Shown piece after piece: positions 8,301 to 63,169 of a DNA stretch of 64,000 bases. The notes below the pieces were generated by a model. It worked only from the letters and a program-made list of their open reading frames with translations, had not been told where the DNA came from and made no database searches. Source of the stretch: Malacoraja senta (Eukaryota); NCBI GenBank assembly GCA_038087875.1, contig CM075988.1:18044001-18108000 (forward strand). The letters run 5' to 3'. How positions within the stretch are numbered: the first letter of the stretch is position 1; every line of letters begins with the position of its first letter. Both the position numbers and the translations under genes were made by a program.

Positions 8301-11300
8301 CATATCATTGAATCAAAGCTTGTCACACAGAGAATATCTGGAATGTACGCACAGAGAAGGCAGTGGAATCAGATACAGCTCTCCTATATAAGAGGCATTT
8401 AGACACACATAAATAAGCAAGGCATAGAAGGGTCTGGAGCTAATGCGTGCAAATGGGATTAGTGTGGATGGGGAAAAGGGTCGGCATGGACAAGGTGGGT
8501 TGAAGGGTCTGTTTCTGTGTTGTACGACTCCAAATAACACAGCAATCAGCCATTCAGCCCAGCCGATTGAGTGCAGCAATAATGCTGGGGAATGTTTGCT
8601 GCACTTGAGCCTTCTTTCCTTCGCTAAATCTGTCGGCGCAACCTCCTTCTCCCTCATGTATTTTGCCAGCCTCTTCTTAAATGCATCTTTATACATGGTC
8701 ATTTCTTTTGAACTTTATCGATGCAGGCATTGTATAGATTGATTTTGTTCCTCAGTTTTAAGTTTTCTAAAGATTCAGCACCAGTGTTTCAAACAATTTG
8801 CCTTTACAAGGGGGAGTGATGTGGGAAATGGAAGTGGAGCCTTACTAATTCCACTCTTTGTTGAAGGGTTTAAATGAATATTCAGCAAGGTGAATCTCAA
8901 TGGGCTATTCTGATCAATGTATGGGAGTGAATGTGCAAGTGTGAATGAAAATAAATCATTCAATTCATTAAACGTGTTCTTTTCCCAGATTTTACATCAG
9001 TGCCTCAGCAATAAATGTCCCACCAGTCTAGGGAGCAGCCAGTGTTAATCCTATTGCCTCTGACTACGGGTTGTGTTTATATTTTACAACATTCAGATCT
9101 TTCCATTTTAAGATAACGCTTGAGCAAGTTGTCGGACTGATCTCCAGTAGGAAATGTAAATCATGCATTTCAACATTGTAAACTGGGCAGTAAAGTAAAA
9201 GTCAGCTTTTACTTAAACAAATACCAGCCTCAGAAAGACCTCATTCCTAAGTTTCTAGCCACGTGTTTAGGAGAAAATAGCTATGTAACATAATAGTTCT
9301 TACCTTGCCTGGAAAAACATTTCCATTTACTTTGGCACACAAATAAGAGAGTAAGTTTGTTGGTCAAAATGTTTGTGGAAAATTGTATGGTACTGAAATA
9401 AATTGGAAGGCAGTGACAGCAAGTTAAGGGCCTGTCCCACTTACGTGTCCTTGGCACGCAAATTACGCGACCTCGTGGTCGCGTTGAGCCGCGAAGGTCG
9501 GGCGTGATTACATGCGTACGCACAGTCGTCTGGAGCGCGTGACGTCATTTGAAGATGGACACAAAGCTGGAGTAACTCAGCAGGACCGGCAGCATCTCTG
9601 GAGAGAAGCAATGGGTGACGTTTCATGTCGAGACTCTTCTTCAGTCTGAAAAGAAGGGTCTTGACCCGAAACGTCACCCATTACTTCCCTCCAGAGATGC
9701 TGCCGGTCCCGCTGAGTTAATACTGCATTTTGTGTCTATCTTCAATTTTCTTGGCCCCGCTCTGCGAGTAGAAGTGGGGGTGGATCCGGACCGCAACGGC
9801 CGTGAGCCCCAGGCCGAGCTTGGCGATCGTTTGCCTGCTTCTGCTGCTGTTAGAGGTGAGACGTTGCGTCGCGCCAGGGTCTTGGCCTGTCCCACTTTGG
9901 CCAACAGTTCCGCGACAGGCCGTTAGCGCGTGAAGATTTAGTTCACTACAAAAATTTCGGAGCCCCGTGCGATATCGTGCACAACTCCATACCCCTCCGC
10001 GCTTCTAAGTGGGACTGGCCCCGCGCGGCCATTCATTGTCCGTACGCCTCAACGCGACCACGAGGTCGCGTAATTTGCGTGCCAAGGACACGTAAGTGGG
10101 ACAGGCCCTTTAGTGTTTGTATGAAGAAAGGCAGATGGGATGTTTTGGGATACTGCAGACTGAGTGAAACATTGTCTATCCATTCCCTCACTAATGCTGC
10201 CTAACCTGCTGAGTTCCGCCAGCACTTTGTTTTTCTGCTCAAAATTCTAGCACCTGTGATATTATGTACTGTCATCTGTGGTGAAAATACATTTCAGATG
10301 TCTTCTTTTCTCCTTCTTTAAAACAAAGTCAATTGAGTAAACACCAGCACCCACAGTTGAATGATGGGCTTCAGCAAGGAGCTGAGGTAAATGGTAACTG
10401 TGGAACTCCACGGCACCGAAGCAAAAACACATATATTGTTAGAACAGGAGAAAACTGGTGAGAAGTTTGGTCAGTTTAATTGTTGATTTTTTCTTTCTTC
10501 TCTTTGCAATAATGTTTCAGAAGATGACCCCATCTTCTTTCATTCAACAGGCATTAGAATCTCTCTTCAGCTAGATGGGTGGTGAAATAGCATGTGTTTA
10601 CTGAGCTGCAGGGCAGGTAGCAGGGCTACTTGATCTGATTGCAAGGGGTGAAGTAAATCATGAGCACAAGCATGGATGGTGCATGCATGAGGGCCTGACC
10701 TCAAATGCGATCAATGCAGGGATGTGTTTGTAGTCGTATACAAGGGAATGATCCTTCGCGTGAAGATGAGTGTCCACATGCTCTGCATTGGGAGTATCGC
10801 ACAGAGGTTTTCCTCATCTTAATACAGGTTTAATTTTATAAGAGCAATCATTTAGACCCAATCCAAGGGTCTAAAAAGAACTGAGTAAAATAATAAGGGC
10901 AAATATGTTAATATGTTGCATAACATATCGAAAATATCATTATGAGCTTGCAAAATATTTTAATATAAATAAATCCTTGACTTCTCAGCAATAATTAAAA
11001 ATACTGATTAAAAAGTGAGGAGGTTCTTGTTTCATTGAAGAGCATGCATGCTGTTTGAATGTAGTCTGGAAATTAAGCAGAAAGTGTTGACATTGGACTC
11101 GTATGTTTTGGTTTAATAATTCTGAACACAATGTTGGGAAAAGATAGAGTGATTCTTTGAGTTTTATATCTTGATACCGCATCTTGCTTGAGCTGAAGGG
11201 CCTGTTTCGTTGCTGTGTGACTGTGTGATACGATTGATTGGTGTTGAAATTTTACAATTCATGTTAATTTATCCAGTACTCTGTTTTATAATCTGAGATG

Positions 11301-14300
11301 TTTTTATTTTTGCGTTAATCCGCAGCATCAGTGGAGCTGGAACTGTGCAAGTCCTCCTGCAGCTAAAGTGCTTTGTCTTTTTCAGTGTCAGTTCAGCAAG
11401 TCCAACGAACAGTGCAAAACCAGAGTCCATTACCAGTCAACTGGAGGAAGGATTGGATTTATCTTCCCAGAAAGAGGAATGGGAGTCCAGACCAGGTACG
11501 TGAACTTCACTCTCAAGCCTAGACTTAAGGCAGATGTCTTTGATAGTTAGTATCAGCTGCTGCAGAGAAAGTCTGTAGCCAAATAGAGATGATATAGTTG
11601 TGGTGGAACTTGAGCTGGGGCAGTGATCCTCAGTGAGTTGAGTCATAGACCACTTGCGATACACCTTGCTCCAGTTCAGATGTTAATGGGGCTGGAGATC
11701 GCATGGGATGAATAATATCAAATATCTTTAACTTCATAAAAGCCTCCCAAGAGGATTTTTTAATCATCTGGGATTCTATGAGATTACGAAAATGCAAACA
11801 GCAATAAAAAAAAGAAATTGATAAGCATGGAGTGAAAACACCTGAGGCAAGAGGCTGAGGTGATGGTGAAGTGTTGCTATTGAATCTTGGAAGCCCTGTC
11901 AAAAGGCAGATGATATACAGGCAATTCTTCACTAATTGCTCCTACTGAATGGATTAGTTATACACAAGTGTGGGAACATCGCCATGTTTGCAGCATCTCA
12001 GGAAATACATGATTTAATCAGTCTTATTCAGGATAGCTCAGCAAGTTAGCTCGTGATTATAGCTTCAGGTATTTCCAGGGTTGAGTTGGTAATGTGAGAG
12101 TGACAAGAAGCACCGCGGTTAGTATCATCAGCCCTGCGTTAGTCTGGGAGAAAGCTAGATATCCATTAAAAGCAGCTTCACCTACAGTGACTTCTATGTT
12201 GTTCTTTGTAGGGGTCATCGAATGGTTTAGCTGCAGTGTCATTTCTTTGCATGGATGATGGCTACTCGAGGGAGGTGCTGAAAGGAAACTGACACTGTTG
12301 ATATCTTCTCCCATCTATCCTTCTTGGGCATATATCACCTTTCCCACATTGTCAATGGTCTGAGTCCTACAACTACGTGCACAAAAGCATTTATCAGAAG
12401 GACCACAGTGATTCAAGAAGGTGGTTCACCACCAACTTCTCAAGGACAGTTAAATTGGGCAATGAGATTTTTTCCAGAGTAGAGGAATAAAGAACCAGAG
12501 ATCATAGGTTTAAGGTGAGAGGGGAAATATTTAATAGGAACCTGAGGAGAAACTTTTTCACACAGAGGGTGATGGTTGAGGAGATAGTTGAGGCAGATAA
12601 TATAACAACATTTAAAGACATTTGGGCAAGCACATGGATAGGAAAGGTTTGGAGGGATATGGGCCAAATGTATCACAGTATGGTTTTGGAACAGCTCTAT
12701 CCAAGACCACAAGAAATTGCAGAGTGTTGTGAAAGTAGCTCAGACCATCATGCAAACCAACCTCCTTTCCATTGAATCCATCTACACTTCATGCTGTCTC
12801 GGCAGGGCCATCAGCATAATCACGGACTGAATTCTCACCACGGTCTCTCTTCTCCCCTCTCTCATCAGGCAAAGGTTTGAAAACGCATACCTCCAGATTC
12901 AGGGACAGTTTTTCCGCAGCCGTTATCAGCCAACATAACTCCTCTCACCAGCTTGAGTGCAATCCTGGCATCCCATCTACTCCATTTGAAACTTTTGAAC
13001 TATCTATAATAGGACTTTATCGGACTTTATCTTGCACTAAACATTATCCTTTATCTGTACACTGTGGACGGCTTGATTGTAATCACGTATAGTCTTTTCT
13101 TTGACTGGATAGCAAGCTTTTTACTGTACCTTGGTACACATGACATTAATAATATACTAAATTAAAGAAGAAGGGTCTCGACCCGAAACGTCACCCATTC
13201 CTTCTCTCCAGAGCTGCTGTCTGACCGGCTGAGTTACTCCAGCATTTTGTGTCTACCTTCAGGAGAAATACATTTGTGCCCGAGTGGATTGAGTGAACTG
13301 CAGCCTGTATTGTCCATTGAAATGTGGTCAGTGAACGCTCAGCAGCTCCACCTGGTGGAGCCTTTTGGGGCCGTTTCTTTCTCTCAGAGGTGGGAAGCTG
13401 TGGGTAGTTGGTGCTTGCTCCACTACTGCTTTCCTTCCAGAGGAAAGAGAGTGGCAACAACGTCTTGAGAAGCTCGGGACCGCGCCCTTGTGCAAACTAA
13501 TGATGTGGTTGAAGGCTTCATGACAATTATTTCTGGAAATTGCTGAAATTCCATCCATAATTACTGGCAATTTTCAAGATAATGACAGGGCCAATGCCTA
13601 CAAATGCAAATTCAACTTTTTTTCACCCAATGATTAAGTGACTGATATCAATCTAAAATAGGAATCGGGAAAACGTTATGATACTGAATGGATATAAAAA
13701 TATTAATTAAATGTTACTAAATTGATATAAAAATATTCACTGTACGATACTAAATGTTAAAATAGTTTATTTGAAGAAAGTTGGCAAAGGTTATTGAATT
13801 AAAAGATCAGGACCTATACACTGCGATTAAGCATTAGATTCTTCTGCACATTCCTACTTGGAGGTATGGATAGTTGACATGCCAGTGGGATATTCAGCAC
13901 CCAAAACTAAATTGACTGTCCATGTTTGGCTTTATTATTGTCATGTGAACTAAAATACAGCAAAAAGCTTTATTTTGCATGCTATCCAAGCAGGTCACAT
14001 GTACCATACAGTCAGTTCAAACTCAAGTACAATAGATAGAGCAAAGAGTAAGATACGGAGTGCAGATCATAGTTCTCAGCCTTGCAGCATTGTATTGCTG
14101 TCTGGGCTTTGCTTTAAACTAGTAACCTTTGGATTGCCGCTAGTCTTTCTGCAGGCTGAATTGGAAATCACTCAATGTATGACCTTTTAATTTGGAAAGG
14201 ATAGAAAAATACTTTAAAAAAAGGGTATTCCAGGAAAATATAGATTTTTAAAAAAACATTTTGATTTGCAAATGAGGATCTTTATATTGATAGCTGAGAT

Positions 14301-17300
14301 TGTTCTGCAATAATTCCACGAATAATCTCTCCCTGTCAGAGGATAATATTGAATCTCCATGGATGTCCATCAACTCTGGAAAATTCCTGATGAATGACAG
14401 CCACTCCCTGTGGGAGGATCAGTTATTGGATCAACAGGACCAGCTGGGCAAGGAAATGGAGGAGGCCAGAAAGATGATTTCCATCCTACAAGTATGTACT
14501 TTCATTTGCGCACTTCGAAAAATATGTTTATCTTGTTGCACTGATTGGTAATAATTTATATCTATAAATAATTTATATCTATATATTTATATTTATATCT
14601 ATTGCAATGTTTAAGAAACATTTAGACGTACATGGATAGGACAGGTTTAGAGATATGGGCCAAATGCAGACAGGTAGAACTAGTGTAGATGGGACATATT
14701 GGCTGGTGTGGGGAAGTTGGGCCGCAGTGCCTATTTCAACGCTAAGACTCTATGACTATCACTCTAAGGGCAAAATAATTTAAAAAATACAAAATGTCAT
14801 CATATTGGGGTGCTATTGGTTATGGTACTGAAGCATGTTCCCAACCTAATTGTTGCCAAAGGTAGACAAAAATGCTGGAGAAACTCAGCGGGTGCGGCAG
14901 CATCTATGGAGCGAAGGAAATAGGCAACGTTTCAGGCCGAAACCCTTCTTCAGACTGATGCAGGGTGGGGGGGGGATGGGGGGGGAAGAAGATAGGAAGA
15001 GGAGGAGTAATTGTTGCCAAGGCAGGTTGTGTGCTAATGTATCTGTTTCAGGTTGTGTGCTAATGTATCAGGTACAGCAGGCAGTGAAGAAAGCGAATAG
15101 CATGTTGGCCTTTATAACAAGAGGAGTCGAGTATAGGAGCAAAGAGGTCCTTCTGCAGTTGTACAGGGCCCTAGTGAGACCACACCTGGAGTATTGTGTG
15201 CAGTTTTGGTCCCCTAATTTGAGGAAGGACATTCTTGCTATTGAGGGAGTGCAGCGTAGGTTTACAAGGTTAATTCCCGGGATGGCGGGACTGTCACATG
15301 CTGAGAGAATGGAGCGGCTAGGCTTGTACACTCTAGAGTTTAGAAGGATGAGAGGATATCTTATTGAAACATATAAGATTGTTCAGGGTTTGGACATGCT
15401 AGAGGCAGGAAACATGTTCCCGATGTTGGGGGAGTCCAGAACCAGGGGCCACAGTTTAAGAATAAGGGGTAAGCCATTTAGAACGGAGATGAGGAAACAC
15501 TTTTTCTCACAGAGAGTTGTGAGTCTGTGGAATTCTCTGCCTCAGAGGGCGGTGGGGCCGGTTCTCTGGATACTTTCAAGAGAGTTAGATAGGGCTCTTA
15601 AAGGTAGCGGAGTCAGGGGATATGGGGAGAAGGCAGGAACGGGGTACTGATTGGGGATGAGCAGCCAGGATCACATTGAATGGCGGTGCTGGCACGAAGG
15701 GCCGAATGGCCTACTCCTGCACCTATTGTCTATTGTCTATTGTTTAAGTTACCATTGCCTTTCAGGTACCAGGCACTCTAGTTAATTCTGGCCTTTGAGC
15801 AACTCTAGCTACCAGAGTGTAACCAATACTTAGAAAATCTAAATACAACCATATCTGGCAAGTTAAAGGATTAATTTTATTTAATTTTAAAGGCCACTAA
15901 ACTTTTGAGTGATTTTGCATGTACTTTTGACAAATTGATTTTCATAATATTCTTCCGTGGCATAAGAATTGCTCCCCTTTGCTCATTTTGTATTACAAAA
16001 TGTATTATACTTAATATTGTTCCCCCTGTTTTTGATTTCTAAAATGAATAGACTGTATTTGTGTGGTAATTGCTGCAGACATCTAACACTAGCTCCTTGT
16101 GAGTTTACCTCATTGAGTGTCTTTGTCACCTGAAACCATGTTATAATTCTGTTGCCAGGGGTTACTATTGAATGGTTCACTTCCTGAAGATGAACAGGAA
16201 GGATCATTTCCCCTGAGTGAGCAAGGAGCATGTGCAGAAGAGCAACTGGTACGTGCTGTTGTATAACGAGCTACACACCAGAGTGTTTGGTCTGTATAAC
16301 CGTTTCTTGTATCTGGAGTAAACATTTGACTGTAAATTCTTGTGTGAATCAGGTCATCATCAAGAGTCGATTGGATCTAAGCATGGATGAATGCCAAGAG
16401 TTAAAGGTACAAAGAATAGCTGCTTTTAAACAACTTCAGAAAATGTTTATGTTTTGGTGTAATTGTTTCTTTGAACCAAACCGGTTCTACAAACGTGGGA
16501 GTAACGTTAATTCCCAACAATTTGGTCAGGTGGAAAGTTAACATTTCAAAACTACATTAATTCATAACTCCAAGCTGCTCAGGGTTGTGGAGAGAGGGTA
16601 ATAGTGTACGACCTGTCAAGTCTCAGTAGCACACCGGCCAGTAACAGCTCCAAGGAAGCTGGATCATGATCTCTTCAGTCTGAAGAAAGGTTTCGACCTA
16701 AAACGTCACCTATCCATGTTGCCCAGAGATGGTGCCTGACCCGCGGAGTTACTACAGCACTTTGTGTCCCTTTGCGTATTAACCATAGATTTAGCCTGTA
16801 GCCCTCTAAACCCTTCCTATCCGATATCTGTCCAAATGCCTTTTAAAAGCCGTAATTGTATTCACTCCTATAGCCAGTGACGGAAATCGCTATCAAAATA
16901 TGGAGGGGACTGGGGGACGGGGGGGGCACAATTTCTTGGTGGCCGAGCGTGCATGTGCACACTCGCACACACATGCGAGGCTTCGGAGACTTCAGCCGTG
17001 GGCCCTGTGAACGGTAATTTCAGCTCAATCCAACGCTAAATGCAGCTCAACTCTGCCTGTCTCGCCGAGGTAACCTACAGCCCTGCCTGGACTGACGGAA
17101 TACCAGTCCGGAGCCGTGGAGCTAGCGCTGCTTCTCCGCGTTGGCTGTAAACCTGGGCCATATTTCCCTTAAGTCCAGGCAGGGCTGTAGGTTAACCTGG
17201 CGGGACAGGCAGAGTTGAGCTGGGGGGGACACTCGGGTGGGGACAGGGATGGTCCAGTGGCAGTTCGGCAGTGATTGCAGCGCCTGAGAGCCGGCTGGGA

Positions 17301-20300
17301 TCGATCCTGGCTGCGGATGAGGCGCAGGTCTGTGTCCAGGGCTGCTGTTGTGACCCTATGACCTGGGCACGTCTCCCTCCTCCAATCACTGCGCTCTATC
17401 CTCAGTCCCACACCCGTACTTCCGCCTCTGACCGACACCTCCCTCCTCCAATCATCGCGCTGAATCATCATGTCCCGCCCCCATTGCCTGCTGACCGACG
17501 TCTCTCTCGTCCAAGCGGCGCCCTCGATCAGCAGTCCCACCCCCACTGTCTCGCGGAAAGCGGAGATTTCACCGGATTTTAAAATGGGGAGGATCGTCCC
17601 CCACCTCTCAAAACAGAGGGGGGACTTGCCCCCCCCGGTCCCCCCTGGAATTCCGCCACTGACTATAGCTTCCTCTGGCAGTTCATTCCAGACACGAACT
17701 ACCCCCCACCCCCACCCCCACTTAAATCTCTCCCCTCTCACCTTAAGCCTATGCCGTCTTGTTTTAGAATCCTCTACCCTGGAAAAACGACTGTGCATTC
17801 ATTTTATTCATGTTTCTCGTGATCTTCTCGGTTCTCCTCAATAAGGTCACCTCTCAGCTTCAAATTCTCCAAAGAAAAAGACCCAGCCTATGAATGGGAA
17901 ACGGTAGGAATGGGTGGTGGTGTGAATGGGTGGTGTTTTGAATTATTCATTTTATACTGTGTTTCTCCCTCAACGTATAAATGGTTGGAGTGAGCTGAAC
18001 TTCACACTATCTCTATTACTGTGGTCTCTCCATAATTATTTTGTATCCTATCTGGTGGAGGAGAAATGTTTTTAACAGGGTAGGAATAATCCTTCTTTAA
18101 TTATTTTTGAATTGACAGAAAGAACTTTCAAAATACAAACTACAAACCAGGAATCTGCAGGGAGTGAAGGTGAGTGCCCAGTAACATCTGTACATGCAAC
18201 GCATCAATTGGACCGAACTATTTCACACTACTAACCTTTCTATTCCCTGCTGATCAAACCCAGAGTGGAACATCAGTAAAACATAATGATCTTATGTGGA
18301 AGGGTTTTTGGAGCTTATTTCGTGATCTGTTTTGCAGCCTAATAGAAACAGAACAGCAACAGCTGTTGTCCACCACGTTCTGACCAATAATTACACCTCA
18401 ACCATCCAAATCACTGAAATAGACGGTCTGGTTACCTTCCCTGGAAGACTGTGCATTCACTCTCTCCCTCATGATCCTATGCACCAATATAAGATCGCCC
18501 CTCAACCTCCTGTGCTTCAAGGAATAAAGTCCCATCCTGACCAATCTCTCCCTATAGCTCAGGTCTTTGGGTCCCGGCAACATCCTCGTAAATCTTCTCG
18601 GCAGAGGGGCGGCATGGTGACGCAGCGGTAGGGTTGCTGCCTTACAGCGGCAGAGACCTGGGTTCGATCCTGACTATGGGTACTATCTGTGCGGGGTTTG
18701 AACGTTCTCCCCGTGTCTGCATGGGTTTTCCCTGGATGCTCCGGTTTCCTCCCACATTCCAAAGACGTACAGGTTTGTGGGTTAATTGGCATTGGTTGTA
18801 AAAATTCCCTAGTGTGTAGGGTGGTGCTAGTTTACGGAAATCGCTGGTCAGCGCGGACTCGGTGAGCAGAAGAACCTGTTTCCGTGATGTATCTCTAAAC
18901 TAAATTAAAGAAAATGCTTTTTATCTAAAGAACATTTTAATGCCTTTAAGGAGCATGGCCGTGCATATTAAGGTCCTTTATAATATATTTTATTCAGGAC
19001 ATTTTGAGCATGTGACGTAGCTGGGTGAGGGTCTCTTGGCGCATGTTAAGCCCACTTCCCTGCTCACTGCCACATGTTTTTCCTCAGGATGCCTTGCAGC
19101 ATCGGATGGCCCAGCAGGAAAACTCCATTCTTCAGCTCAAGCAGGAGTTGCTGAGAGCGGGCATGGCCAAGGACGAACTGCTGAGTGAAAATGTGAGGAC
19201 CGAGGGGCTTTGATAGTTGACACACCGGGAAATGTATTCAAGTTGATAAGGTGCTCCCTGACTCGCTGAGTTCCTCCAGGGCTTTATTTTGTGCTTGAGG
19301 AGAGAGGTATTGGAAGTAGAACCACATGTGGGATAGGTGGTGGCCAGGTGAAATTAAAACAGAAAGTGGTGAAAATAATATACCTTTCAGCAGATACATT
19401 TACCATGGTGAAGTGAACAGAACAGTAAGAAATTCCATGTTAACAATATTTTAAGTACAAGTGCACCATTGATTGTGAGGAACCCTTGGTTTATAGAACC
19501 TTGCCAGATTATCCATTTTGCCGGGCCAACAGAGGTCACGTAATAATAATAATTCAACAATACACCTCTGACCCACTAATTATATCCCTCCCGTACCTCT
19601 AAAGCACCATGAACTGCTAGAAACTTAAATAAAACATAAACAAAGTAAATAATTAACTGATTCAGCACGGAGACACACCACCCGAAAGAGCCTGCGCCAC
19701 GTGCAATACTCTTGTAATTTTGTCCGGGTTAAAGGAGGTGCCCGGATCAGTGGCGGTGTACCTGTGTATAATGAGAAGGGGGAGTGATGAGGAGAGAACG
19801 TGCAAGTTGAACTTTATGAATGGTGGAGCGGCGAATGCTCACATCAGGAAATCAACGTTTCTTGGCGGCGATAGAGTCTAACGGTGCTGATGTGATGCAA
19901 CACTTTTCAGAAAGCATTCTAGGATTTTTGTGATGAGCCAAATGCCCTTTGCTTGTTTATCTTCCTGAATGTAACTGCTGAAGTCATTTCTGTCACTTTC
20001 ATTTTGTGTTGACAGCTTGACCTTCAGAGGAAGTCTGAAGAACGGAACCGGATGATTGGGGAATTTAAAGTAAGCAACTCTAAGACCCACAGTCGGAAAT
20101 GATTGCACTTTGGGGTCTACGAAACACACAGACATGATTTATTGAAATGGCCACATACTTTACATCAACAATCTGGTTCACAGAGTAAACATTAATTGTA
20201 AATCATGATTTTTCTGGGACATAAATAAATCATGCTATAAATTGCATTATATCCATGTCTCATTGCTGGTTGTAACTGTTGTTTAAAATACCATACTAGT

Positions 20301-27771: not shown

Positions 27772-28139
27772 ATGTGGGCCATTTGTACAACAGCTCGATA
27801 TATTGTGGAAAATGCCTCCTAATTTCTTGGGTAGACAAAAGTGCTGGAGAAACTCAGCGGGTGCAGCAGCATCTATGGAGCGAAGGAAATAGGCAACGTT
27901 TATTTCTTGGGTTATTCTGCCAAAGCTGCTCAGTGGTTTGGTGTGTACTAGTTGCACAGTTCCACTATTCCTTTAAAAGCTTCCGTGCTGTTTGCCTCAA
28001 ATACCACAAGGCATTCGTTATAACATTTGTCAGGGTCAAACACCATCCCTTGAAATTTCTGGATTTATTGGTGACTATTATATTTATGACCTTTAATTTT
28101 AAATGATCATAACATTACAAATGACTGTTATACAGAAAT

Positions 28140-29550: not shown

Positions 29551-29999
29551 TTTTTTTTAAATTTTATTGAACATGTTAAAAAAAATACAAACACAAATAA
29601 ACTTATAAGCAATAAAAAAGAAAATAAAACACAAAGGAAAACAAACAAATAAGTAACTCAAATAATACAAATAATATCGTTCATGTTCAAAAGGGGTAAG
29701 AAGAAGTTCGAAAACTTTTCTGGTCCTACCCCCTCTTATTTTCTATACATTTTCATGGAAAAACAAAATAATGGGAACAAATGGACCCAAAATCTGTTGA
29801 ACAGTTCACAAACAAGAAATAACCAAACAGAAAAGAAAATCACTGGCCAGCTCATAACCATTCAATCTTTTGTTTCTGAAGTGTTTTTAGTTTGAATAGA
29901 GTCTTACATTTTTTCAGCTCATCGTGGCAGTTATTCCAGAGACTAACACCCTTTGCTGTATGTAACACATTGGAGTTTTGCATTAGTTGAATTAACTAG

Positions 30000-30760
30000 A
30001 GATAGACGCAAAATGCTGGAGTAACTCAGCAGGTCAAGCAGCATTTCTGGAAAAAATGGATAGGCGATGTTTCCGGTCGGAACCCTTCTTCACACGGATT
30101 TATATAAACCAGCATCTGCAGTTCCTTGTTATTACATTTTGACTGCTCCACTGCGATTTCTCTTCAGGGTATGCCGACTTTTAAGAAGTTTTCCTACCCT
30201 TGGGTTACTCTGGCAATTTGTGTCTATTTTTGGTATCTACAGTTTCTTGTTATTACATTTCTGAATTTTAACTTGCCCGCGCTGTCTTCATCCACAATTA
30301 TTTTAAAGCTAATAGAACAGTGGTTAGGAAGGAACTGCAGATGCTGGAATAAACCGTAGACACAAAATTCTGGAGTAACAAAGAGGGACAGGCAGCATCT
30401 CTGGAGAGAAGGAATGGGTGATTCAGGTCGAGACCCTTCTTCAGACTAGTCTGGAGAAAGGGAAACGAGTGGTTGAACAGTGGTTAAGAAGGAACTGCAG
30501 ATGCTGGAAAATCGAAGGTAGACAAAAATGCTGGAGAAGCTCAGCGGGTGAGGCAGCATCTATGAAGCGAAGGAAATAGGCAACGCTTCGGGTCGAAACC
30601 CTTCTTCAGACTCAATAGGCAACGTTTCGGGTCGAAACCCTTCTTCAGACCCGAAGCGTTGTCGGAAGAAGGGTTTTGATCCGAAACGTTGCCTATTTCC
30701 TTCGCTCCATAGATGCTGCCTCACCCGCTGAGTTTCTCCAGCATTTTTGTCTACCTCCGG
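30000..30760. mobile_element. Cluster of Penelope-like terminal repeats (tandem and inverted)
   Basis: Several aaggaactgcagatgctgg...cccttcttcagac units separated by the repeated target gaacagtggt. Confidence 0.75.
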
Positions 30761-33268: not shown

Positions 33269-49784
<16,516 letters not shown>

Positions 49785-54285: not shown

Positions 54286-54426
54286 TTACTTGGTAAGAAT
54301 AGGCATCTGTACGGACAGGGTGTGGGTCTTCCTGCTGAGCTTGGCGCTGACCATGTCCTCACAGATGGTTTCGGGTAGGTTGAGCTGCAGTCGGTACTTT
54401 GCCGCCACATCGATAACAACGTCATC
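54286..54426 (-). CDS. PIH1D2: PIH1D2 last coding exon
   Basis: DDVVIDVAAKYRLQLNLPETICEDMVSAKLSRKTHTLSVQMPILTK*. Confidence 0.93.
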   Translation of the reverse strand, partial: DDVVIDVAAKYRLQLNLPETICEDMVSAKLSRKTHTLSVQMPILTK

Positions 54427-57400
54427 CTGTTTCGAAAGGCAGATGGAAATTAACAGGCTATTCTCTCCATAAAGATATCTTGTGAAGCGTTAACTTTAAA
54501 TGTCAGTCTAAACCAGTTTCAAATTGATTAACTTTACAGAAATATCGGTGACTTTCTGGTGACCGTGAAGCCCAGGTGTTGGTGTGACATTGTCTCTCTA
54601 CTTGCAGCTTAACGACTTATTGTGGACCAAGTACAAGCTATTGTCCATAGTTTTCATAATGTGTATATAACTGCGAGCTTGCCCTGTACTATAATTGTGC
54701 ATCCCTCTTATGGGTGTCCCAATGTTTTCACAATACACAACACAATCGAGGTGCAGCATAAAAATCATGCGTAGACATTCCCAAAACATTATTGTATTAT
54801 AAAGAAATTTTAACTGAATTGCTCAGAAATACTGCCCAGCTAACTGTATTAACAAGACAACGTGCTTGAGTAACTCAGTGGGCCAGGCAACCTCTGGAGA
54901 ACATGGATAGGTGACATTTTGGGTCGGGACCCTTTGTCACCCATCCATGTATTCCAGAGATGCTGCCTGACCCGCTGAGTTACTCCAGAACTTTGGCTTT
55001 TTTTGTAAAGCAGCATCTGTAATTCCTTGTTTCTAACTAGACAACAAATTGGTGACTAACTTATTAGGACAGAGGAGGGGGGACGATCAGCCCATCCTGT
55101 ATCTGAGAGTTCTAAGAGCAATGCCAAATCTGAATCACACCCACCCCCCACCCCGACAGCCCCCGCTGGAATTTGGAATCTGAATTCTCTCATCTGTGGT
55201 TTACAACAGTCTGCACAAGCCCGAGCTCTGTGTTCAGTCAACACCAACCTTGGAGACGCTGAGACCACAGTCTGCCACAGAGGAAACCTCAGGCAGCTCC
55301 ACCTTCAGCTGGATGCTTGTCGGTTTCCCACCCTCATCGGTGATGACGGACATCTTGTACTTTGGAGTAGCCACTGTGTTGCTACACTCAAAGTCCACGC
55401 TTGAAATCTCCTGGATGAGGCCCGGCTTGTTTGGCTGGTGGGTGTGAGTGGGCAGGTGGATGGGACTGTCCTTGTCCTGCTCCCCGTCTGCCTCTCTCAG
55501 GCTGGTCAGCTGCTGCAGTAAGGAGGCGTTAGCATCGGCCTCTGCCCCCACAGCCACAGCTTGGCCAGGCTCGCTTCTCCCGCTCAGCCGCTGCTTGATC
55601 CGTTCCCTGCTGCCCGTCTGCGTCTGCCCCAGCAGCCTGTATGAGTGCGACAGGCGGATGCGGTGCTGCTCCTCGATGTATCTCATCGCCAGGCGGATCA
55701 TCTGGTCCCGTTCCACAGGGTCCTCCCTTGCTTTCTGAATCACCTCGGGGCTGTACGCAACGTCAGTGACACAGCAAATGTCTGCGGGAGGGAATTTAAA
55801 AAGTTCAAGTAACGTTCTCTTCAGCAAACCAGCCCACCTTCCCCCAGTGGAGAGACTAAACTTGGAGCACTGTGTGCAGTTCTAGTTGCCCAACTACAGG
55901 AATGATGTCATTCAGTGGGAAATAATGCAACAAAGATTCACCAGGATGGTACCTTGGTTTGAGTGATAGGGAGACGTGGGATAGGATAGGACTTCTTTGG
56001 AGTGTTGGAGGCTGAGGGGTGGCTTTACTGATGTGTTCAATATCATGAGGGCTATAGAGGCATCCCCCTCCATAGGCATCTGCAGTTCCTTCCGACGCAG
56101 TACCCCAGGTGTGGTGTCACCAGCAGCTTATGCTGAAGTAACATGCCTTCCTCGCCACCTTGTTTTTCTGTGTCACCTCTTTCATGTACTATTACTTGTG
56201 CCTGGAGGTATCTGTTTTACAACAATCCCCAGGGGATTTCCTGTGCAAGTCCTGCCCTGGTTTAACCTTGCATTTGTCCTGGATACAGTTTGAACCTTGA
56301 GGTTGAAACTGCAGGGTGCATTTCAAACCAGGGTTAATTTTAAGCATTCTCCTGGCCAAGTGCCCATCTGTCACTGGGACCTCCAGAACAATCACATAGC
56401 ACAGGAACAGACACTTCGGCCCACAATGTTTGTGCGGAACATGATGCCAAATTAAACTAATCTCATCAAACTGTACATGATCTATATCCCTCTGCTCCCT
56501 GCACTTCCATGTGCCTATCCAAAATCCTCTCAAATGTCACTATCGTATCTGCATCCACCACCATCCCTTCCAATGTGTTCCAGGCCCCCACTACTGTGTA
56601 AAATAACATTTCCAAAAAAAACTTGCCCTGCACATCTCCATTAAACTTTTCATTTCTCGCCTTTACAGCTACACCCTGCAATGTTCGACATTCAACCAGG
56701 GTAAAAAGGTTCTGACTGTCTACCCTATCTATTGCCATAACTTGCAATTCGATGCGGCTCACAGGAGGGAGCATAGGACATGATGTGGCAGTGAGACGGG
56801 CTGGGTGAAGCATCACTGCTCTTACCCCAGGCAACGTGCTCACAACATATCACACGTCAGCGTTAGGAGACAAGCCAGCCTTGGCTCACCAGCTACCTGT
56901 GCCATTGACCGTTTCCTCCATCGGCCCTCCGCTGAGAGGGACAGGGTCGGCATTGCTCTTCGGAGCAGGGACACGACTCCAGCTGCAAAGGTTTACGAAC
57001 AGCACCCTCTCACCGGGTTCCTGGAGGAGAGAGAAATAATGACGGCTTGTTGTCAAAGGTCACAGAGATCTCTGGCAGAATTAACTTGAGACGAGCAGGT
57101 ACAATTCAAACTCTTGTCCATGTGTCACTCATAGCCATCCTCGGCAACCTATCCTCTGCTATCAGAAACTTGTCTCTTGTAGTCTTACGATTTACGATTT
57201 ATGTAATGCATGTACAATTTAAGGTGTGTATGTCTGTGCCTGCGATGCTGCTGCATGCAACATTTACATTGTATCTGTACCTCACCGCACTCGTGCTATA
57301 ACAAAACGCAAGCTCATGCGCCACATAAAAACGCATTACATTTTTTATCACCACCCTCCTGCACTACGTTCCAGTTATCAACCACTCTTTGGGTGAAAAG

Positions 57401-58649
57401 GTTCACTTCATTCCCTCTAGTTCTCCTGCCTGTTATCCTAAATCTGTATCTTCCAGTTCCACCTCTGAAATGAGGAAATGTTTCCTGCAGTCTACTCAAC
57501 CCATACACCTCATAATTTTAGATTCCGCAGTCATGTCCCCTCTCAACTCCCCTGCTCCAGGAAGGACAGACCCATCCTCTCCTCATAGCTAAAGACCAAG
57601 GCAAAGTCCTGGTGAATCTCCTTAGCACTCTGTCCAGTGCTCTCACACCCTTGCTATAGTGTGGTGACCAGAACGCCACACAGTTCTCCAGCTGGAATGG
57701 ACAGAAGACATTTCGGGTTGGGACCCTTCTTCAGTCTGTGGAAGGGTCTTAACCCAAAACATCGTCTGTCCATTACCTCCATAGATGCTGCCTGGCCTGC
57801 TGTGTCTGTGTTTTGCTCCCGATTCCCGCATCTGCAGTTCCTTGTGTCTCACGTTTATAAAATTTTAGCTGCTCTCTCCCACTGACTGTTTGGAACGTGT
57901 GGCATCGCCCAGCTGAGTAATGGCCAGTCCCAGCAACACCTGACTCTCATCACAATAGTTTCATTCATTCACAAGGATTGATTTATTTTAAAGTGTATGT
58001 TATTGAAGGAAATGTAAGTATTGGTGCCCAGCGGTATGTCGCTTAGGCAGCTTACAACCCAGCTGCATGAATATTCATTTTTGTAGTTTCAAGTAACTCC
58101 TGCATTCTCTCTCCCCCCCCCCTTCCCCCACCCTAGTTGGCCTACCAGTTTGCATCCTTGTATCCCTCCTTCTCCAGCCAGCTCTCATACCCTCTCCAGC
58201 CAACAAAGGGTTAGTATGGGCTCCATTCTTCCTGAGGTCTCTGTTGCCAGCCTTGATTTGTTCTGGCCTTTTCTCCACCCCCACCCCCACCCCAATCCCT
58301 ACTTTCGGTCTGAAGGATTCTGACCAAAAACGTCACCTATTCTTTTTCTCCAGAGATGCTTCCTGACCCTCTGGAGTTACTCGTCCAGCACTTTGTGTGT
58401 CTCTCCGGTATAAACCAGCATCTGCAGTTCCACCCTACACATGTTGGTTGGTGTCAGGGTTTGTACCTGTATGTTGGTCTGGATGCAGGCGTGGGGCTCC
58501 GGGGCAGTGAACTGCTTCTTCCCCTCGGTTAGCTGCTGGCTGATGAACTTGTGGTAAGCTTCAGGGCTGCTCTCAGACATCTCGTCCAACAAACTCCACA
58601 GCTGGTTCACCTGCTGCACAAGCGCATCTTCACGCCGCCCTGTGGCCAT
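54286..58649 (-). CDS. PIH1D2: PIH1 domain-containing protein 2 (DNAAF15), 4 coding exons, 326 aa
   Basis: Exons 58649-58467, 57020-56897, 55781-55249, 54426-54286 join in frame (981 nt). Motifs QVNQLWSLLDEM, LFVNLCSWSRVPAP, DVAYSPEV, LIQEISS, LKVELPEVSSVADCGLSVS, KYRLQLNLP match recalled human PIH1D2. Confidence 0.95.
55249..55781 (-). CDS. PIH1D2: PIH1D2 third coding exon (533 nt)
   Basis: Within ORF 55234..55827; cccgcag acceptor, AAG|GTTGGT donor. Confidence 0.92.
56395..56740 (-). mobile_element. CR1 3' fragment
   Basis: Degenerate ORF2 end (VVGAWNTL...VDADTIVTFERILDRHM). Confidence 0.75.
56897..57020 (-). CDS. PIH1D2: PIH1D2 second coding exon
   Basis: EPGERVLFVNLCSWSRVPAPKSNADPVPLSGG...; 124 nt, phase 0 to 1. 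Confidence 0.9.
58040..58440 (+). mobile_element. Penelope-like element 3' end
   Basis: RLGSLQPSCMNIHFCSFK* endonuclease C-terminus, C-rich tail, degenerate hammerhead-like core and terminal repeat. Confidence 0.7.
58467..58649 (-). CDS. PIH1D2: PIH1D2 first coding exon
   Basis: MATGRREDALVQQVNQLWSLLDEM...CIQTNIQ|GTACAA. Confidence 0.93.
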
Positions 58650-58691
58650 AGTTTCCCTGTTGCTGGTGCAAAGCCTTCGACAAAACAGCTT

Positions 58692-59567: not shown

Positions 59568-62500
59568 GTAAGTATTTTAATCCTGCTGCCGGATACCTGA
59601 GGCCTGTGGAGCTGACCTTACTGTTGCTATACCGTCGCTAGAACTGCTCACTTGGATTCATGCATGAGATGTCCCAAACATCTCCCCTTCCCCCTGCAAC
59701 CGCAGGAGATGTAATACCTGTCCCTATACCTCCTCTGTCCTAACGATCTAGACAACCCAGTAGCCCTTCCTGGTGAGATAGTGGATTACACGCACCTCCT
59801 CTAACCTCATCCACTGCATCCGGTGTTCCTGATGTGGCCTTCTGTACATCAGCGAGACCAAGCATAGGCTCGGCAACCATTTTGCTGAACATTCGTGCTT
59901 GGCCTGCCAAGGCCGGCTGGATCTCCTGGTTGCTAACCATATTAACTCCTCATCCCATTCCAATACTCACCTTTTCGACCTGCTCCTCCTCCATTGTCAA
60001 AGTGAGGCCACATGCAAACATAGTTTTGTTTATAGATAAAGCATGGAAACTGCTTTCGGCCCACTGAGACCATGTGGGCCATTGATTACCTGTTGACACT
60101 AATTCTATGTTATCCAACTTTCCCCATCCACTCCCTACACATTATGGGTAATTTAAAAGAGGCCAATTAGCCTATAAACCTGCACTGGAGGAATAGCACC
60201 TTTTATGCCCCTTGGTTAGCTTATGGTATGAACATTGAATTCTCCAATCCCAATTAATTCTCCCCCAATCCCCACTTTCTTTCTTGTGGGCCCCCCCCCC
60301 CGTTCCCCCCATCCTTGAGTGCTAGAATTTCTCCCAGCACATTCCTGTCCCTTCCCCCCCCCCCCCCCCCCCGGTCACCATACTCCTTTCAATTCCCATC
60401 CCTGCGACCCCAATTTCCATTTTATCCACCCCCCCCCCCTTATCCATTCCTCCTTTCTGCTTTTGCATTGAACACCTTTTCTCTCCACTTCTGACATAAT
60501 GTTGTCTTCTTTTCTCTTCTCGCCTTTGTCAGTTACTCCACCTGTCTGCCAATCACACCCCCTTTACCAGTATCTACCTATCACTCACCGGGGCTTTGTT
60601 CCACAGGCACCTCTTTTTTCAGCTTTCAACCTCTACAGCAATTGACTGAAGAAGGATCCCGACCTGAAACGTCACCTGTCCATTCTTTCCACAGATGCTG
60701 CCTGGCCCGCTGAGTTCCACAAGCACATTGTGTTTTTTGCTCAAGATTCCAGCACCTGCAGTTCCTAGTCTCTGTTGCTTTTCTTGATGTATATTAACAG
60801 AGTGTACACCAGCGTACAGGGCAGGTAACAATTAGCTGATGATGCCACAATAAGCTGATGATGCAAAGTACACCAGTGTACTTTGCAGATAACAGTAAGC
60901 TGATGGGTGAAGTAGGAGGACAGCAAGTGACAGAGATGTAGACAGGCTGTGGATGGCTGGATGCGACAAATGTTACATTTTGGTAGGAAAAAGAAATGTC
61001 CTTCAGAAAAGGAAATCCGCCATCTTTAGCCAGCGTAGCCAAGATGTGTCTCCTGGGTATCAATGTTGACCCGTAACTATCTTGGGCACGCACAAAACTG
61101 CAGGTGCGGGAAACTTGACCAAAGGCTGGAGGAACTCAGCGGGTCAGGCAGGATCTGGGATGGGATTTAAGTCTGAGAGAGGAAGTTTTGGCTCAATACC
61201 CTTCTTTATCCCTTCTCCTGGCTTTAGCTTTTACTCATCTACTCTCCTGATCTGACACCTTTTATCTTTCTAGCCTTTGTCTAGCACTTACTCCATTCAT
61301 CTGCCATTCACTCTCCTCACCTCTATGCACCGATTAGTTAATGATTCATGTCGGAGACCTTTCATCAGAGCTCAGTGACTACTAAAGTAGCAGTTTTGAG
61401 GAAAGATCTTAAACCTGATACATTGACCTTTTTTATTCACAGATTCTGCCTGACCTGCTGGGTGTTTTCAGTATTTTCCATTTTATTTAAGATTTTCAGC
61501 GTGTGCTGTTTTTTGAGAGTAATTGAATTATATACGGTGTCTGTCCCAGGAACAGAATGCGGTGTGACGGGTACGATGAAGAGGACGAAGAACAAAAGGC
61601 GACTGCTGCTGCTCAGAAAATGTTCACGGCACAGGATGAACGGGAGAGCCGAATCTGGACAAAGAAGCTGTACGACTTTGAAGCAAGAGATCCAAACAGG
61701 TCTGAGCCTTGAAATCGTCTGTAGTTGGGGAAAGGTCAAACTCCTTGCCATAGAATGTAGAGAAGAGGAACAGGCCCTTTGGCCCATCACATTGTGCTCA
61801 AGATGCCAAGATAAACTAATCCCCTCTGCCTCCACGCAATCCATATTCCTCCATCCCCTGCATATCTGTGTGCCAACCAAAACCCTCTTAAATGTCACTA
61901 TCGTATCTGCCTCCACCACCATCCCTGGCAGCCCATTTCACCCACTCACCACCTTCTTTGTTTTGAAAAAAAACTTGCCTCGTGCATCTCTTTTAAACTT
62001 TCCCCCTCTGACCTTAAAGCTATGCCTTCTTGTCTTTCCCATTTCCATCCTGGGAAACAGGTTCTAACTGTCTCAACTACATGACTTCCTGACTCTTATA
62101 CTCTGATGAAGGCATGCTTCCTTTTCCATTTGAGTCTATTTGAGCTGCTACTTTCTGGTAGTTATGGACTTGGAACCCAAAATCTCTGCATCAATGCTGT
62201 AAAGGGTCATGCCATTAACTGTATACATTTCCCTTGCATTCGTCCTCTCGCACTTACTGATATTAAACTCACCTGCTATTTCTCAACTCAAAACTGATCT
62301 ATGCTGTGCTGTATCCCTTCACAGCTTTCCTCGTAACTAGTTACTCAAACTAATTGCTTCAGTCTTGTGTCCCAGTGCATATACAAAATCCTATATGAAC
62401 ATTTATATATTTTTTAAATAAACCCTCGTGGTTCAAATTTGTTCTTTTTGTTAAGAAGTTGAATTATCATTTAACTTAACAGGTGACCGAATTAAGAGAG

Positions 62501-63169
62501 TCAACTAATCTTGATGCTTGATTTTTATTTGAAGTAATCAGACTTTATGCTTTTTATTTTTAAAAAGCCTAAATTTGAAATCACTGGGAAACAGTGAAAA
62601 CTGAGGATTATACTCAAAATGTTGTTACTGTACTTGGAATGCACACGGCTTATTGTTCAGAAGTGCAGCTTTTATTAAAATTTCAGGCCAATTTTAAAAC
62701 CACTGCTTTCCAACCAAAGTTTTGAAACTCTGCTCTGAATTGTCTTGCTAGAAGAGCTGGGTACCACACCAGATGTATGGCACCCTTTAGTCTTGCCTAT
62801 TAAGTGAATCTAATGAAAAAATCATTGGTCAAGGATCCCGACTTAATGCGTCACCTGTCCATGTTCTCCAGAGATGCTGCCTGACCTGCTGAATTACTTC
62901 ACTTTGTGCCCTTTTGTATATTAACCAGCATGTGCAGTTCTTTGTTTGTACTAATGAATGATGTATAGCCTTTTCTTTAACTGGATAGCATTCAAATAAA
63001 AGCTTTTCACTGTACCTCTGTACACTGATTATAATAACCTAAATTGAATTGAACAATTCATTAGTTTTTTTAATTATGCAGGAATTAAATAGTATTTTCT
63101 GAATTGATTGTTTAGATGGGGCCACAGTGGCTACAAGGAACTTTACCCAGAAGAATTTGAATCTGAGAG
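59467..63169 (+). CDS. NKAPD1: NKAP domain-containing 1 (C11orf57), partial: three internal exons
   Basis: Exons 59467-59567 (IQEESEMWKIREKEKQ), 61550-61699 (RMRCDGYDEE...WTKKLYDFEARDPNR) and 63116-63169 (WGHSGYKELYPEEFESE) are phase-consistent. The first and last coding exons are not visible. Confidence 0.92.
59692..60775 (+). mobile_element. Neptune-type Penelope-like retroelement remnant (GIY-YIG endonuclease pseudogene plus 3' tail)
   Basis: PCNRRRCNTCP...SSNLIHCIRCS*CGLLYISETKHRLGNHFAEH...VANHINS with stops; interrupted by a SINE 3' half at about 60021-60185; ends in the hammerhead-like terminal repeat. Confidence 0.82.
61550..61699 (+). CDS. NKAPD1: NKAPD1 internal exon
   Basis: cccag acceptor, GTCTGA donor, phase 2 to 2. 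Confidence 0.9.
61750..62070 (-). mobile_element. CR1 3' fragment
   Basis: [15 protein letters not shown] and tail shared with other copies. Confidence 0.75.
63116..63169 (+). CDS. NKAPD1: NKAPD1 internal exon
   Basis: tttag acceptor, GTAAGT donor. Confidence 0.92.

What the first reader, a model, noticed from the sequence alone, without database searches (positions are those of the whole stretch)
9550..62950. Abundant short repeats carry a minimal hammerhead-ribozyme-like core and derive from Penelope-like element ends
Seen: a recurring motif (a/g)gt-CTGAAGA-a-GGGTCTCGACCC-GAAAC-GTC-acc (variant ...GAAAC-GTT-gcc), with copies in varying states of decay near 9644, 13167, 14926(-), 16677, 22250, 30419(-), 30575-30690, 46480(-), 49425, 54910(-), 57710(-), 58306, 60645 and 62830. 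It maps onto the hammerhead core CUGANGA / stem II / GAAA / NUH. Stem III is reduced to the palindrome ACGU, which could pair only in a dimer, and stem I is 2-3 bp (GGU/ACC). Established: Penelope-like elements carry minimal, dimer-type hammerheads in their terminal repeats. Inference: introns of all four genes are seeded with ribozyme-derived motifs on both strands, often as inverted or tandem pairs, so a few could cleave or form dsRNA in pre-mRNA.
Basis: partly seen in the sequence, partly recalled or inferred. Interest (0 to 1): 0.75.

Follow-up and report, generated by a model that had tools for sequence, protein, structure and literature searches.

The report
Decayed Penelope retroelement ends with hammerheads
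The short repeats scattered through this stretch of DNA, likely from a skate-like fish, are the clipped ends of a Penelope-like jumping gene and carry its already known minimal self-cutting RNA motif, but most copies are mutated or predicted to be locked in hairpins, so they likely do not cut the host's RNAs.

Summary
Real and known in kind. The window holds 32 copies (16 per strand, about 22 insertions) of a ~100/130-nt repeat whose consensus fits the published minimal type I hammerhead (min-HHR) of Penelope-like elements (PLEs). PLE origin is now shown. One copy (60646) is the 3' end of a decayed GIY-YIG endonuclease with a Neptune/Nematis-type Cys linker, homologous to 800-920-aa RT+GIY-YIG proteins. 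The repeats also show the optional ~34-nt tail, head-to-head inversions and 11-14-bp target duplications typical of PLEs. The cleavage idea is not supported. Only 4 of 32 copies pass a relaxed descriptor, the core is not significantly more conserved than the flank (p=0.13), covariation is not significant, and none of the 4 is at once host-sense, palindromic and free of an upstream antisense arm. The proposed test dimer (30560-30700) is not intronic, has one mutated core and is predicted to be locked in a ~-206 kcal/mol hairpin. Intronic dsRNA is predicted for several pairs. One extra lead: 14 of 18 copies stop within a few bases 5' of the core and none starts at the cut site, which suggests run-off cDNAs from an uncleaved RNA.

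The parts
59674..60773 (+). 5'-truncated PLE copy: Cys linker and GIY-YIG endonuclease remnant (59674-60021, 4 in-frame stops), unrelated short repeat inserted at 60024-60185, ORF C-terminus (~60225-60250), pyrimidine-rich 3' UTR, hammerhead (C3 at 60646; stem II mismatched, helix I broken), tail. In an NKAPD1 intron, sense
58034..58440 (+). PLE ORF C-terminal remnant (58040), 3' UTR, hammerhead with deletions (58306), tail. PIH1D2 intron 1, antisense
   Evidence: (profile of PLE C-termini, iE 0.002; best reversed-window hit iE 0.4)
30483..30758 (.). Tail-bearing minus arm with a 39-nt tandem of two hammerhead cores (C3 at 30648, intact; C3 at 30609, A15.1>G), head-to-head with a plus arm (U4>G). 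14-bp target duplication. Between DIXDC1 and DLAT
30323..30470 (-). Copy with a deletion at helix III, bluntly joined head-to-head to a short arm, both starting at A-2. 12-bp duplication, same target site as the neighbouring insertion
29999..30260 (.). Inverted pair: minus arm (C3>G) joined to a plus arm that starts near +96 and runs past the tail into a short ATG-led frame at 30171
9549..9745 (.). Head-to-head pair centred on CAG-T-CTG. Plus core has a 2-nt insertion; minus copy has a broken stem II. Predicted hairpin -145 kcal/mol
13167..13263 (+). Solo copy truncated at about +3, no tail
14859..15005 (-). Solo copy with ~45 nt of pyrimidine-rich UTR, intact core with palindromic ACGU, 13-bp duplication. 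DIXDC1 intron, antisense
16670..16787 (+). Copy with a short fold-back at CAG-T-CTG, G12>A. DIXDC1 intron
22128..22349 (.). Head-to-head pair, tail on one arm only, both cores defective. DIXDC1 intron, predicted hairpin -127 kcal/mol
27829..27901 (-). Fragment +22..+93 with 11-bp duplication
38706..38930 (.). Old head-to-head pair. Older subfamily with 4-bp AAUU/AAUU helix I. DLAT intron
46437..46578 (.). Twin-priming-like inversion (+74 to -1 reversed, then +63 to tail), 14-bp duplication, core mutated. DLAT intron
49330..49554 (.). Head-to-head pair. Plus arm has an intact core but non-palindromic ACAU and a tail. Last DLAT intron. The plus arm was the reference for read laying
54851..55031 (.). 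Inverted pair (+7 joined to +26). PIH1D2 intron
57694..57850 (.). Head-to-head pair centred on CAG-T-CTG. Minus core passes the descriptor (AUGU) but its antisense arm is transcribed first. PIH1D2 intron 1
655..930 (-). Old-subfamily copy with >100 nt pyrimidine-rich UTR, 4-bp AGUC/GACU helix I, N7=U, core decayed, tail
61092..61506 (.). Old composite of several arms, including a CUGAUGA core piece at ~61370 (minus). NKAPD1 intron
62831..62948 (+). Decayed copy with tail, core destroyed
10166..10256 (+). Old fragment starting at about +21
19249..19293 (+). Fragment +48..+87
20899..21030 (.). Old inverted pair

Best explanation
The repeats are clipped pseudo-LTR ends of an endonuclease-bearing Penelope-like retrotransposon, likely of the Neptune type, and carry its minimal hammerhead motif, which likely works only in the parent element's RNA as a dimer or with protein help, while the genomic copies are likely decaying neutrally. 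Shown: link to a GIY-YIG remnant, two 3' end classes ~34 nt apart, head-to-head arms, target duplications, mostly mutated cores. Inferred (about 0.5): the element's protein primes reverse transcription at two internal sites ~70 and ~100 nt past the cut site, as shown for the Anolis element, on UNCLEAVED RNA, and most cDNAs run off or stop just 5' of the core. Two cDNAs primed from both nicked strands are then joined head to head, often through the CAG-W-CTG quasi-palindrome. Inferred host effect: intronic dsRNA from inverted pairs, not cleavage.
For: Window frame 59674-60021 read with X at 4 stops: 959 homologues at E<=1e-3, best 6e-27. All 7 long hits tested (609-924 aa) carry RVT_1 plus a C-terminal GIY-YIG match at E<0.01, mostly below Pfam's cut-offs. 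40% identity over 94 aa to P0023, 51% over 102 aa to a Leucoraja protein. This frame runs through a pyrimidine-rich UTR into the hammerhead at 60646; a second C-terminal remnant precedes 58306. The consensus has the core, the extra nucleotide between 9 and 10.1, G10.1-C11.1 and the palindromic 15.2-16.2 that PMC4209133 lists for min-HHRs. In four public runs, loose 3' ends cluster at 49513-20 and 49548-54 with T/A-rich flanks. Duplications of 11-14 bp at 5 of 21 insertions versus 3 of 1980 random pairs. The same architecture is described in PMC3846280 and PMC8557442; internal priming and use of unprocessed RNA in PMC11167929. Decay: core mismatches 35/240 non-CpG versus 292/1560 downstream, p=0.13 (24 of 32 copies). 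In run X1 G12 and C11.1, a CpG, vary in 12% and 9.5% of depth. 14 of 18 copies stop within a few nt of C3, 4 continue into UTR; none of 32 starts at +29.
Against: No RT remnant lies in the window, so the clade rests on the linker motif alone. The endonuclease-linked copy belongs to an older subfamily (82% to the consensus); the link for the young subfamily is the weaker 58040 remnant (iE 0.002). Helix I is only 2 bp in the young consensus against 4-5 bp in most published min-HHRs, so even the parent ribozyme may be weak or dead. The 5' pile-up rests on about 10 independent insertions and could instead reflect fold-back at the palindrome or an RT stop at the C-rich tract. Genome-wide joints back to 49421 and pyrimidine-rich loose ends show that many templates extend further 5'. 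Three rows of the alignment (9641+, 49401-, 20974-) were misaligned, which adds noise to the conservation test.
Confidence: 0.85

Rival explanations
1. Some intronic copies are active or exapted ribozymes that cleave host pre-mRNA as dimers.
For: 4 of 32 copies keep a full core, a 4-bp stem II and 2-4 bp of helix I. Two of them are sense to a host gene (49426 in DLAT, 57734 in PIH1D2). The family is extremely abundant (142,702 and 166,801 contigs laid in X1 and X8), so trans-dimers are conceivable.
Against: 49426 has non-palindromic ACAU and 57734 has AUGU, and both follow an antisense arm. 14953 is antisense to its host gene; 30648 is not intronic. The double-hammerhead fold of the 39-nt tandem scores -9.5 against -18.6 kcal/mol for the MFE and is buried in a -206/-223 kcal/mol hairpin in context (tertiary contacts are not modelled). 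No excess conservation or covariation. Published min-HHRs cut poorly even as dimers; 1 of 9 Xenopus dimers cut.
Confidence: 0.04
2. The repeat is an independent non-LTR retrozyme or SINE that amplifies through self-cleaved, circular 100- or 134-nt monomers.
For: Head-to-tail joints going back 99-100 and 133-134 nt exist in runs X1 and X8 (3-34 contigs each) and in 1-2 contigs of X19 and X21. Such dimers would carry two complete hammerheads. A 2026 preprint found retrozymes in its one chondrichthyan genome.
Against: Window copies are dispersed, begin 5' of the core and not at the cut site, end at PLE tail positions, and 4 of 18 continue into the PLE UTR. The joints are tens of contigs among >140,000.
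Confidence: 0.07
3. The 5' edge marks a 3' splice acceptor (pyrimidine tract + CAG) abutting helix I, as in Drosophila virilis Penelope, so that splicing swaps the 5' strand of helix I and switches the ribozyme. This replaces only the inferred step of the best explanation.
For: Pyrimidine-rich tract then CAG|T in copies 776 and 14953. PMC4209133 reports an intron end at helix I in D. virilis; PMC2377424 describes that intron. The unspliced helix I is only 2 bp.
Against: No shared 5' exon upstream of the truncated window copies. Loose 5' ends in the RNA-guessed runs are pyrimidine-rich, not a common exon (contigs only, only the best-supported rows shown).
Confidence: 0.15
4. The hammerhead likeness is chance in an ordinary abundant repeat.
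For: Rfam finds no hammerhead. Covariation is not significant (64 of 500 shuffles reach the score).
Against: Descriptor hits 4 versus 0.03 expected. The motif sits exactly where PLEs carry it. Older subfamilies keep the core with N7=U and different, still paired 4-bp helix I sequences (776, 38808; n=2).
Confidence: 0.02

Closest known systems
Minimal type I hammerheads (min-HHR) in metazoan PLE pseudo-LTRs (Cervera & De la Pena 2014, PMC4209133; the short-stem-III dimers of Lunse et al., seen only through review PMC6765202)
   Same: Core, unpaired nucleotide between 9 and 10.1, G10.1-C11.1, palindromic 15.2-16.2, location in the pLTR, mostly solo copies from truncated PLEs, nearby copies on opposite strands.
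   Different: Stem II is 4 bp plus a tetraloop (7-8 bp in Schistosoma) and helix I is 2 bp in the young subfamily (4-5 bp typical, 2 bp in D. virilis). Cartilaginous fishes are not named in the parts of that paper I read.
EN+ Penelope-like elements, Neptune/Nematis type (Craig et al. 2021, PMC8557442; Arkhipova et al. 2013, PMC3846280)
   Same: C-terminal GIY-YIG, CX2-5CxxC linker, 5' truncation, head-to-head inverted arms with palindromic junctions, 30-40-bp tail on one arm, variable target duplications.
   Different: Here nearly all copies are reduced to ~100-130 nt at about one insertion per 3 kb; no RT in the window.
Poseidon element of Anolis carolinensis, PAc (Frangieh et al. 2024, PMC11167929)
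   Same: Two 3' end points separated by a tail downstream of the hammerhead, AT-rich targets, copies made from uncleaved RNA.
   Different: PAc is Poseidon clade and its ATG lies in stem II; here there is no ATG in the hammerhead, and the first end lies ~70 nt past the cut site rather than ~85.
Animal non-LTR retrozymes (bioRxiv 10.64898/2026.07.22.740005; PMC7229834, search listing only)
   Same: Short, non-coding, pLTR-derived, hammerhead-bearing.
   Different: Retrozymes are head-to-tail arrays with complete hammerheads in consecutive units; these copies are dispersed solos or head-to-head pairs.

Membership tests
PLE min-HHR (type I) | Catalytic core CUGANGA / GAAA / UH | tested here: met
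   Met by the consensus; complete with stems in only 4 of 32 copies
PLE min-HHR (type I) | Unpaired nucleotide between 9 and 10.1, and G10.1-C11.1 | tested here: met
   A at +8, G+9/C+20 in the consensus; features from PMC4209133
PLE min-HHR (type I) | Palindromic 15.2-16.2, no loop III | tested here: met
   ACGU in the consensus; often decayed at the CpG
PLE min-HHR (type I) | Helix I of 4-5 bp (2 bp in the D. virilis variant) | tested here: inconclusive
   2 bp in the young consensus, 51% of cells paired over 3 bp; 4 bp in two older copies
PLE min-HHR (type I) | Covariation in the stems | tested here: inconclusive
   21 window copies: stem II 88% paired, score 0.172, 64 of 500 shuffles as high; neutrally decaying copies give little power
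PLE min-HHR (type I) | Located in the pLTR downstream of the PLE ORF | tested here: met
   59674-60773 and 58034-58440
PLE min-HHR (type I) | Self-cleavage as a dimer or with protein help | not testable with these tools
   Needs an in vitro assay
EN+ PLE (Neptune/Nematis type) | C-terminal GIY-YIG endonuclease | tested here: met
   Pfam alone did not recognise the decayed remnant
EN+ PLE (Neptune/Nematis type) | CX2-5CxxC linker before the endonuclease | tested here: met
   C-X4-C-X2-C at ~59695-59720; motif as defined in PMC8557442
EN+ PLE (Neptune/Nematis type) | Telomerase-like RT in the same ORF, clade by RT phylogeny | tested here: inconclusive
   No RT remnant in the window; homologues carry RVT_1; no tree possible
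EN+ PLE (Neptune/Nematis type) | Optional 30-40-bp tail, often on one arm only | tested here: met
   3' ends near +95 and +129; asymmetric in the pairs at 22128, 30483, 49330
EN+ PLE (Neptune/Nematis type) | Head-to-head inverted 5' arm and variable target duplication | tested here: met
   duplications of 11 bp or more at 5 of 21 insertions
Non-LTR retrozyme | At least two consecutive tandem units with complete hammerheads | tested here: not met
   The only tandem in the window has one mutated core; rare 100/134-nt tandem joints exist elsewhere in the runs
Non-LTR retrozyme | Circular monomeric RNA | not testable with these tools
   Only contigs were available
Rfam hammerhead families | Match to a covariance model | tested here: not met
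   One hit at E<=1 in the whole window, a sub-threshold mir-722 match to the 30615-30698 hairpin

The most novel reading that the evidence does not exclude
The element's mRNA starts at A-2, two bases before the hammerhead's U0-C3, in an initiator-like TCAGTCT, and the short repeats are capped run-off ('strong-stop') cDNAs: a SINE-scale family produced directly by the autonomous element. Support: two arms join bluntly exactly at A-2 (30449), and a G stands in place of the natural C before A-2 at three joints (30613 and twice at 49405-49420), like the cap-derived G of full-length L1 insertions (PMC11702581). This would explain why helix I is only 2-3 bp, and would make the hammerhead a dimer-dependent self-decapping off-switch that removes a ~30-nt capped leader. 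That would be a concrete role for a ribozyme whose function in PLEs is open. The initiator consensus is recalled, n is small, and joints back to 49421 argue that templates often extend further 5'.
Probability: 0.25. Interest if true: 0.55.

Novelty: new member of a known kind. Interest (0 to 1): 0.25.

Why it matters
As a class this is established: PLE ends seed animal genomes with minimal hammerheads. The modest added value is a very abundant cartilaginous-fish family whose many junctions record how PLEs copy themselves (two priming sites, uncleaved template, head-to-head joins), matching the one in vitro study. If the 5' pile-up marks the transcription start, it would make the open question of what PLE hammerheads do directly testable. 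Inverted pairs are also predicted to load introns with long dsRNA.

Tried and rejected
No whole genome was held, so no genome-wide consensus or full-length element could be built. Rfam gave no hammerhead; the mir-722 hit is the inverted-repeat hairpin, below its gathering score. Exact-pattern scans of metagenome and viral contigs found nothing. Pfam on 300 of 314 stop-free frames of 60 aa or more found host genes but no RT or GIY-YIG; the remnant was found by reading translations. A word-indexed search among longer proteins missed it, as did Pfam. Pfam on 98 short plus-strand frames in 1-14400 found no upstream DIXDC1 exon. Sequencing runs: no RNA holder listed; X19 and X21 are only guessed to be RNA, so nothing is claimed about expression. 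No place where many molecules begin or end was listed (table 6), and 8 variant rows were hidden, so the invariance of CUGAAGA across the genome cannot be read from it. The first dimer energy used an impossible 2-nt loop and was redone. An A>G/T>C excess in X21 over X8 (7 of 7 minor sites up, against 5 of 21 other changes) was not accepted as editing: several sites are subfamily markers, and the individuals differ. Look-ups of earlier scan findings by sequence and by seven words gave nothing; by two words, 358 findings, of which the 8 shown concern other elements. Six paper searches listed no paper devoted to this skate/shark repeat or to strong-stop products of PLEs; subscription journals, Repbase and Dfam were not searchable. 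Lunse et al. was not held. The preprint's supplements were closed and may list the chondrichthyan families. A term search in the supplements of PMC11167929 found nothing.
Full report
Setting. The window is vertebrate DNA, likely from a skate-like cartilaginous fish: the closest named homologues of its retroelement remnant are from Hypanus, Leucoraja and Heptranchias. No whole genome is held. Pfam and tblastn place four host genes: a DIX-domain gene (plus, exons 14360 to ~25350), DLAT (plus, 33269-49781), a PIH1 gene (minus, ~54290-58640) and a gene with a weak NKAP match (plus, exons at ~59467 and ~61548). DLAT is named. The names DIXDC1, PIH1D2 and NKAPD1 rest on these domains plus recalled synteny.

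Observation. All 14 positions given hold a copy. A motif scan gave 17 matches. A profile from 15 of them gave 32 hits at E<1e-3, 16 per strand, and none on the reversed window. They form about 22 insertions. Numbering C3 as +1, the unit runs from about -3 to +96, or to +129 with a tail. The consensus reads core, an unpaired A, a 4-bp stem II with a 4-nt loop, GAAA, the palindrome ACGU, C17 (U in one subfamily) and 2 bp of helix I. These are the features of min-HHRs in PMC4209133 (parts 1-2 of 4 read), except for the shorter helices. Rfam has no match. A relaxed descriptor finds 4 sites (14953-, 30648-, 49426+, 57734-) against 0.03 expected. Copies lie between coding exons of all four genes, but the six at 27830-30790 are between genes, and five upstream of 14360 could not be placed.

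Origin. Upstream of the copy at 60646 lie a pyrimidine-rich tract, an ORF end and, at 59674-60021, a frame with four stops that contains a C-X4-C-X2-C linker and a decayed GIY-YIG motif. It has 959 homologues at E<=1e-3. [quoted passage not shown] A second C-terminal remnant precedes the copy at 58306 (iE 0.002). No RT remnant is present. The linker points to Neptune or Nematis (PMC8557442, passages). The architecture matches PLEs as described there and in PMC3846280 and PMC8969392 (passages): head-to-head arms with palindromic junctions, a tail on one arm only, and 11-14-bp duplications at 5 of 21 insertions examined versus 3 of 1980 random pairs. Laying four public runs on copy 49408-49580 recruited 142,702, 166,801, 14,236 and 3,300 contigs. 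Loose 3' ends cluster at 49513-20 and 49548-54 with T/A-rich flanks, and loose 5' ends are pyrimidine-rich. These counts are not copy numbers, but they show a very large family in at least three related organisms.

Are the copies working ribozymes? Probably not. In 24 of 32 copies spanning both parts, core mismatches were 35/240 at non-CpG sites versus 292/1560 downstream (p=0.13; all sites p=0.31), and CpG sites were hit about twice as often, including G12 (three rows were misaligned). In the laid contigs, the listed variation inside the hammerhead sits at CpG pairs; 8 rows were hidden. Covariation over 21 copies is not significant. Two older copies keep different, still paired 4-bp helix I sequences and N7=U, a small hint of selection on parent elements. 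Of the 4 descriptor-passing copies, one is antisense to its host, one is intergenic, and the two sense ones have ACAU or AUGU and follow an antisense arm. In any head-to-head pair the antisense arm is transcribed first, whichever strand is read. The 39-nt tandem proposed for testing has A15.1>G in its second core; its double-hammerhead fold lies 9 kcal/mol above the MFE, and in context it is inside a -206 (minus) or -223 (plus) kcal/mol hairpin. Pairs at 9549, 22128, 49330 and 54851 fold at -100 to -145 kcal/mol with 53-77 long-range pairs, against -20 and -39 for two solos, so intronic dsRNA is predicted for the three pairs placed in introns. Published activity of such ribozymes is low (review passages PMC6765202), protein-assisted in Anolis (PMC11167929, parts 1-2 of 4), and was seen in 1 of 9 Xenopus dimers (bioRxiv 10.64898/2026.07.22.740005, parts 1-3 of 5).

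How the copies likely arise (inference). The Anolis protein nicks both strands of AT-rich DNA, primes at two internal sites that bound the tail, and uses unprocessed RNA. The two 3' end classes here fit that, and no copy begins at the cut site (+29). Of 18 copies with a readable 5' region, 14 (10 independent insertions) stop within a few bases of C3 and 4 continue into the UTR. Three joins centre on CAG-T-CTG, one is a blunt join of two arms at A-2, and others stop at -1 against unrelated partners, as in L1 twin priming (PMC11702581, passages). So a real RNA 5' end or a strong stop likely lies at about -2. Candidate causes are a transcription start in the initiator-like TCAGTCT (consensus recalled; a G replaces C-3 at three joints), a splice acceptor as in D. 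virilis (PMC2377424, passages), or fold-back alone. Head-to-tail joints of 99-100 and 133-134 nt occur in 3-34 contigs each in X1 and X8. They are potential retrozyme seeds, and their return to 49421 argues that templates can extend beyond -2.

Verdict. The ribozyme class, its place in pLTRs, the solo and opposite-strand copies and the dimer requirement are all published. Cleavage of host pre-mRNA is not supported; dsRNA formation is predicted. This is a new member of a known kind, interest 0.25. The start-site and self-decapping reading is the one lead worth a bench test (probability about 0.25). Six paper searches listed no description of this particular family, but repeat databases and most subscription journals were not searchable.

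Noticed in passing
window 30315-30773: Two insertions sit at the same target site; the duplicated 12-14-mer occurs three times, which suggests re-cutting of the duplication.
   Followed up: partly
window 30102-30200 (+): One arm runs past the tail into an ATG-led frame at 30171 that may be the start of the PLE ORF (resemblance to shark PLE starts is recalled; too short to search).
   Followed up: partly
window 49408-49580, runs X8 and X21: Minor A>G/T>C variants are higher in the RNA-guessed run than in the DNA run of the same coded organism (7 of 7 versus 5 of 21 other changes). Could be A-to-I editing of dsRNA or subfamily bias.
   Followed up: partly
runs X1, X8, X19, X21: Head-to-tail joints of 99-100 and 133-134 nt would give tandem units with two complete hammerheads, that is retrozyme-like dimers.
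   Followed up: no
window 24363-24937: The DIX-domain exon region is duplicated in tandem (24363-24683 and 24686-24937); both copies match the same protein stretch.
   Followed up: no
window 9426-10110: The head-to-head pair at 9549-9745 is nested inside a CpG-rich element with 66-bp perfect terminal inverted repeats (9426-9491, 10045-10110), probably a young non-autonomous DNA transposon.
   Followed up: no
window 58431-58452: The tail of the 58306 insertion ends within about 20 nt of the apparent donor of the first PIH1D2 coding exon.
   Followed up: no
window 978-1342, 15069-15750, 43204-43768, 52934-53608 and others: Many 3' fragments of another LINE-like family, and tRNA-like SINE copies (e.g. 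18607, 26521, 45024), are present (class assignment recalled).
   Followed up: no
window 17043-17222, 31257-31736: Other short inverted or duplicated elements, not related to the hammerhead family.
   Followed up: no
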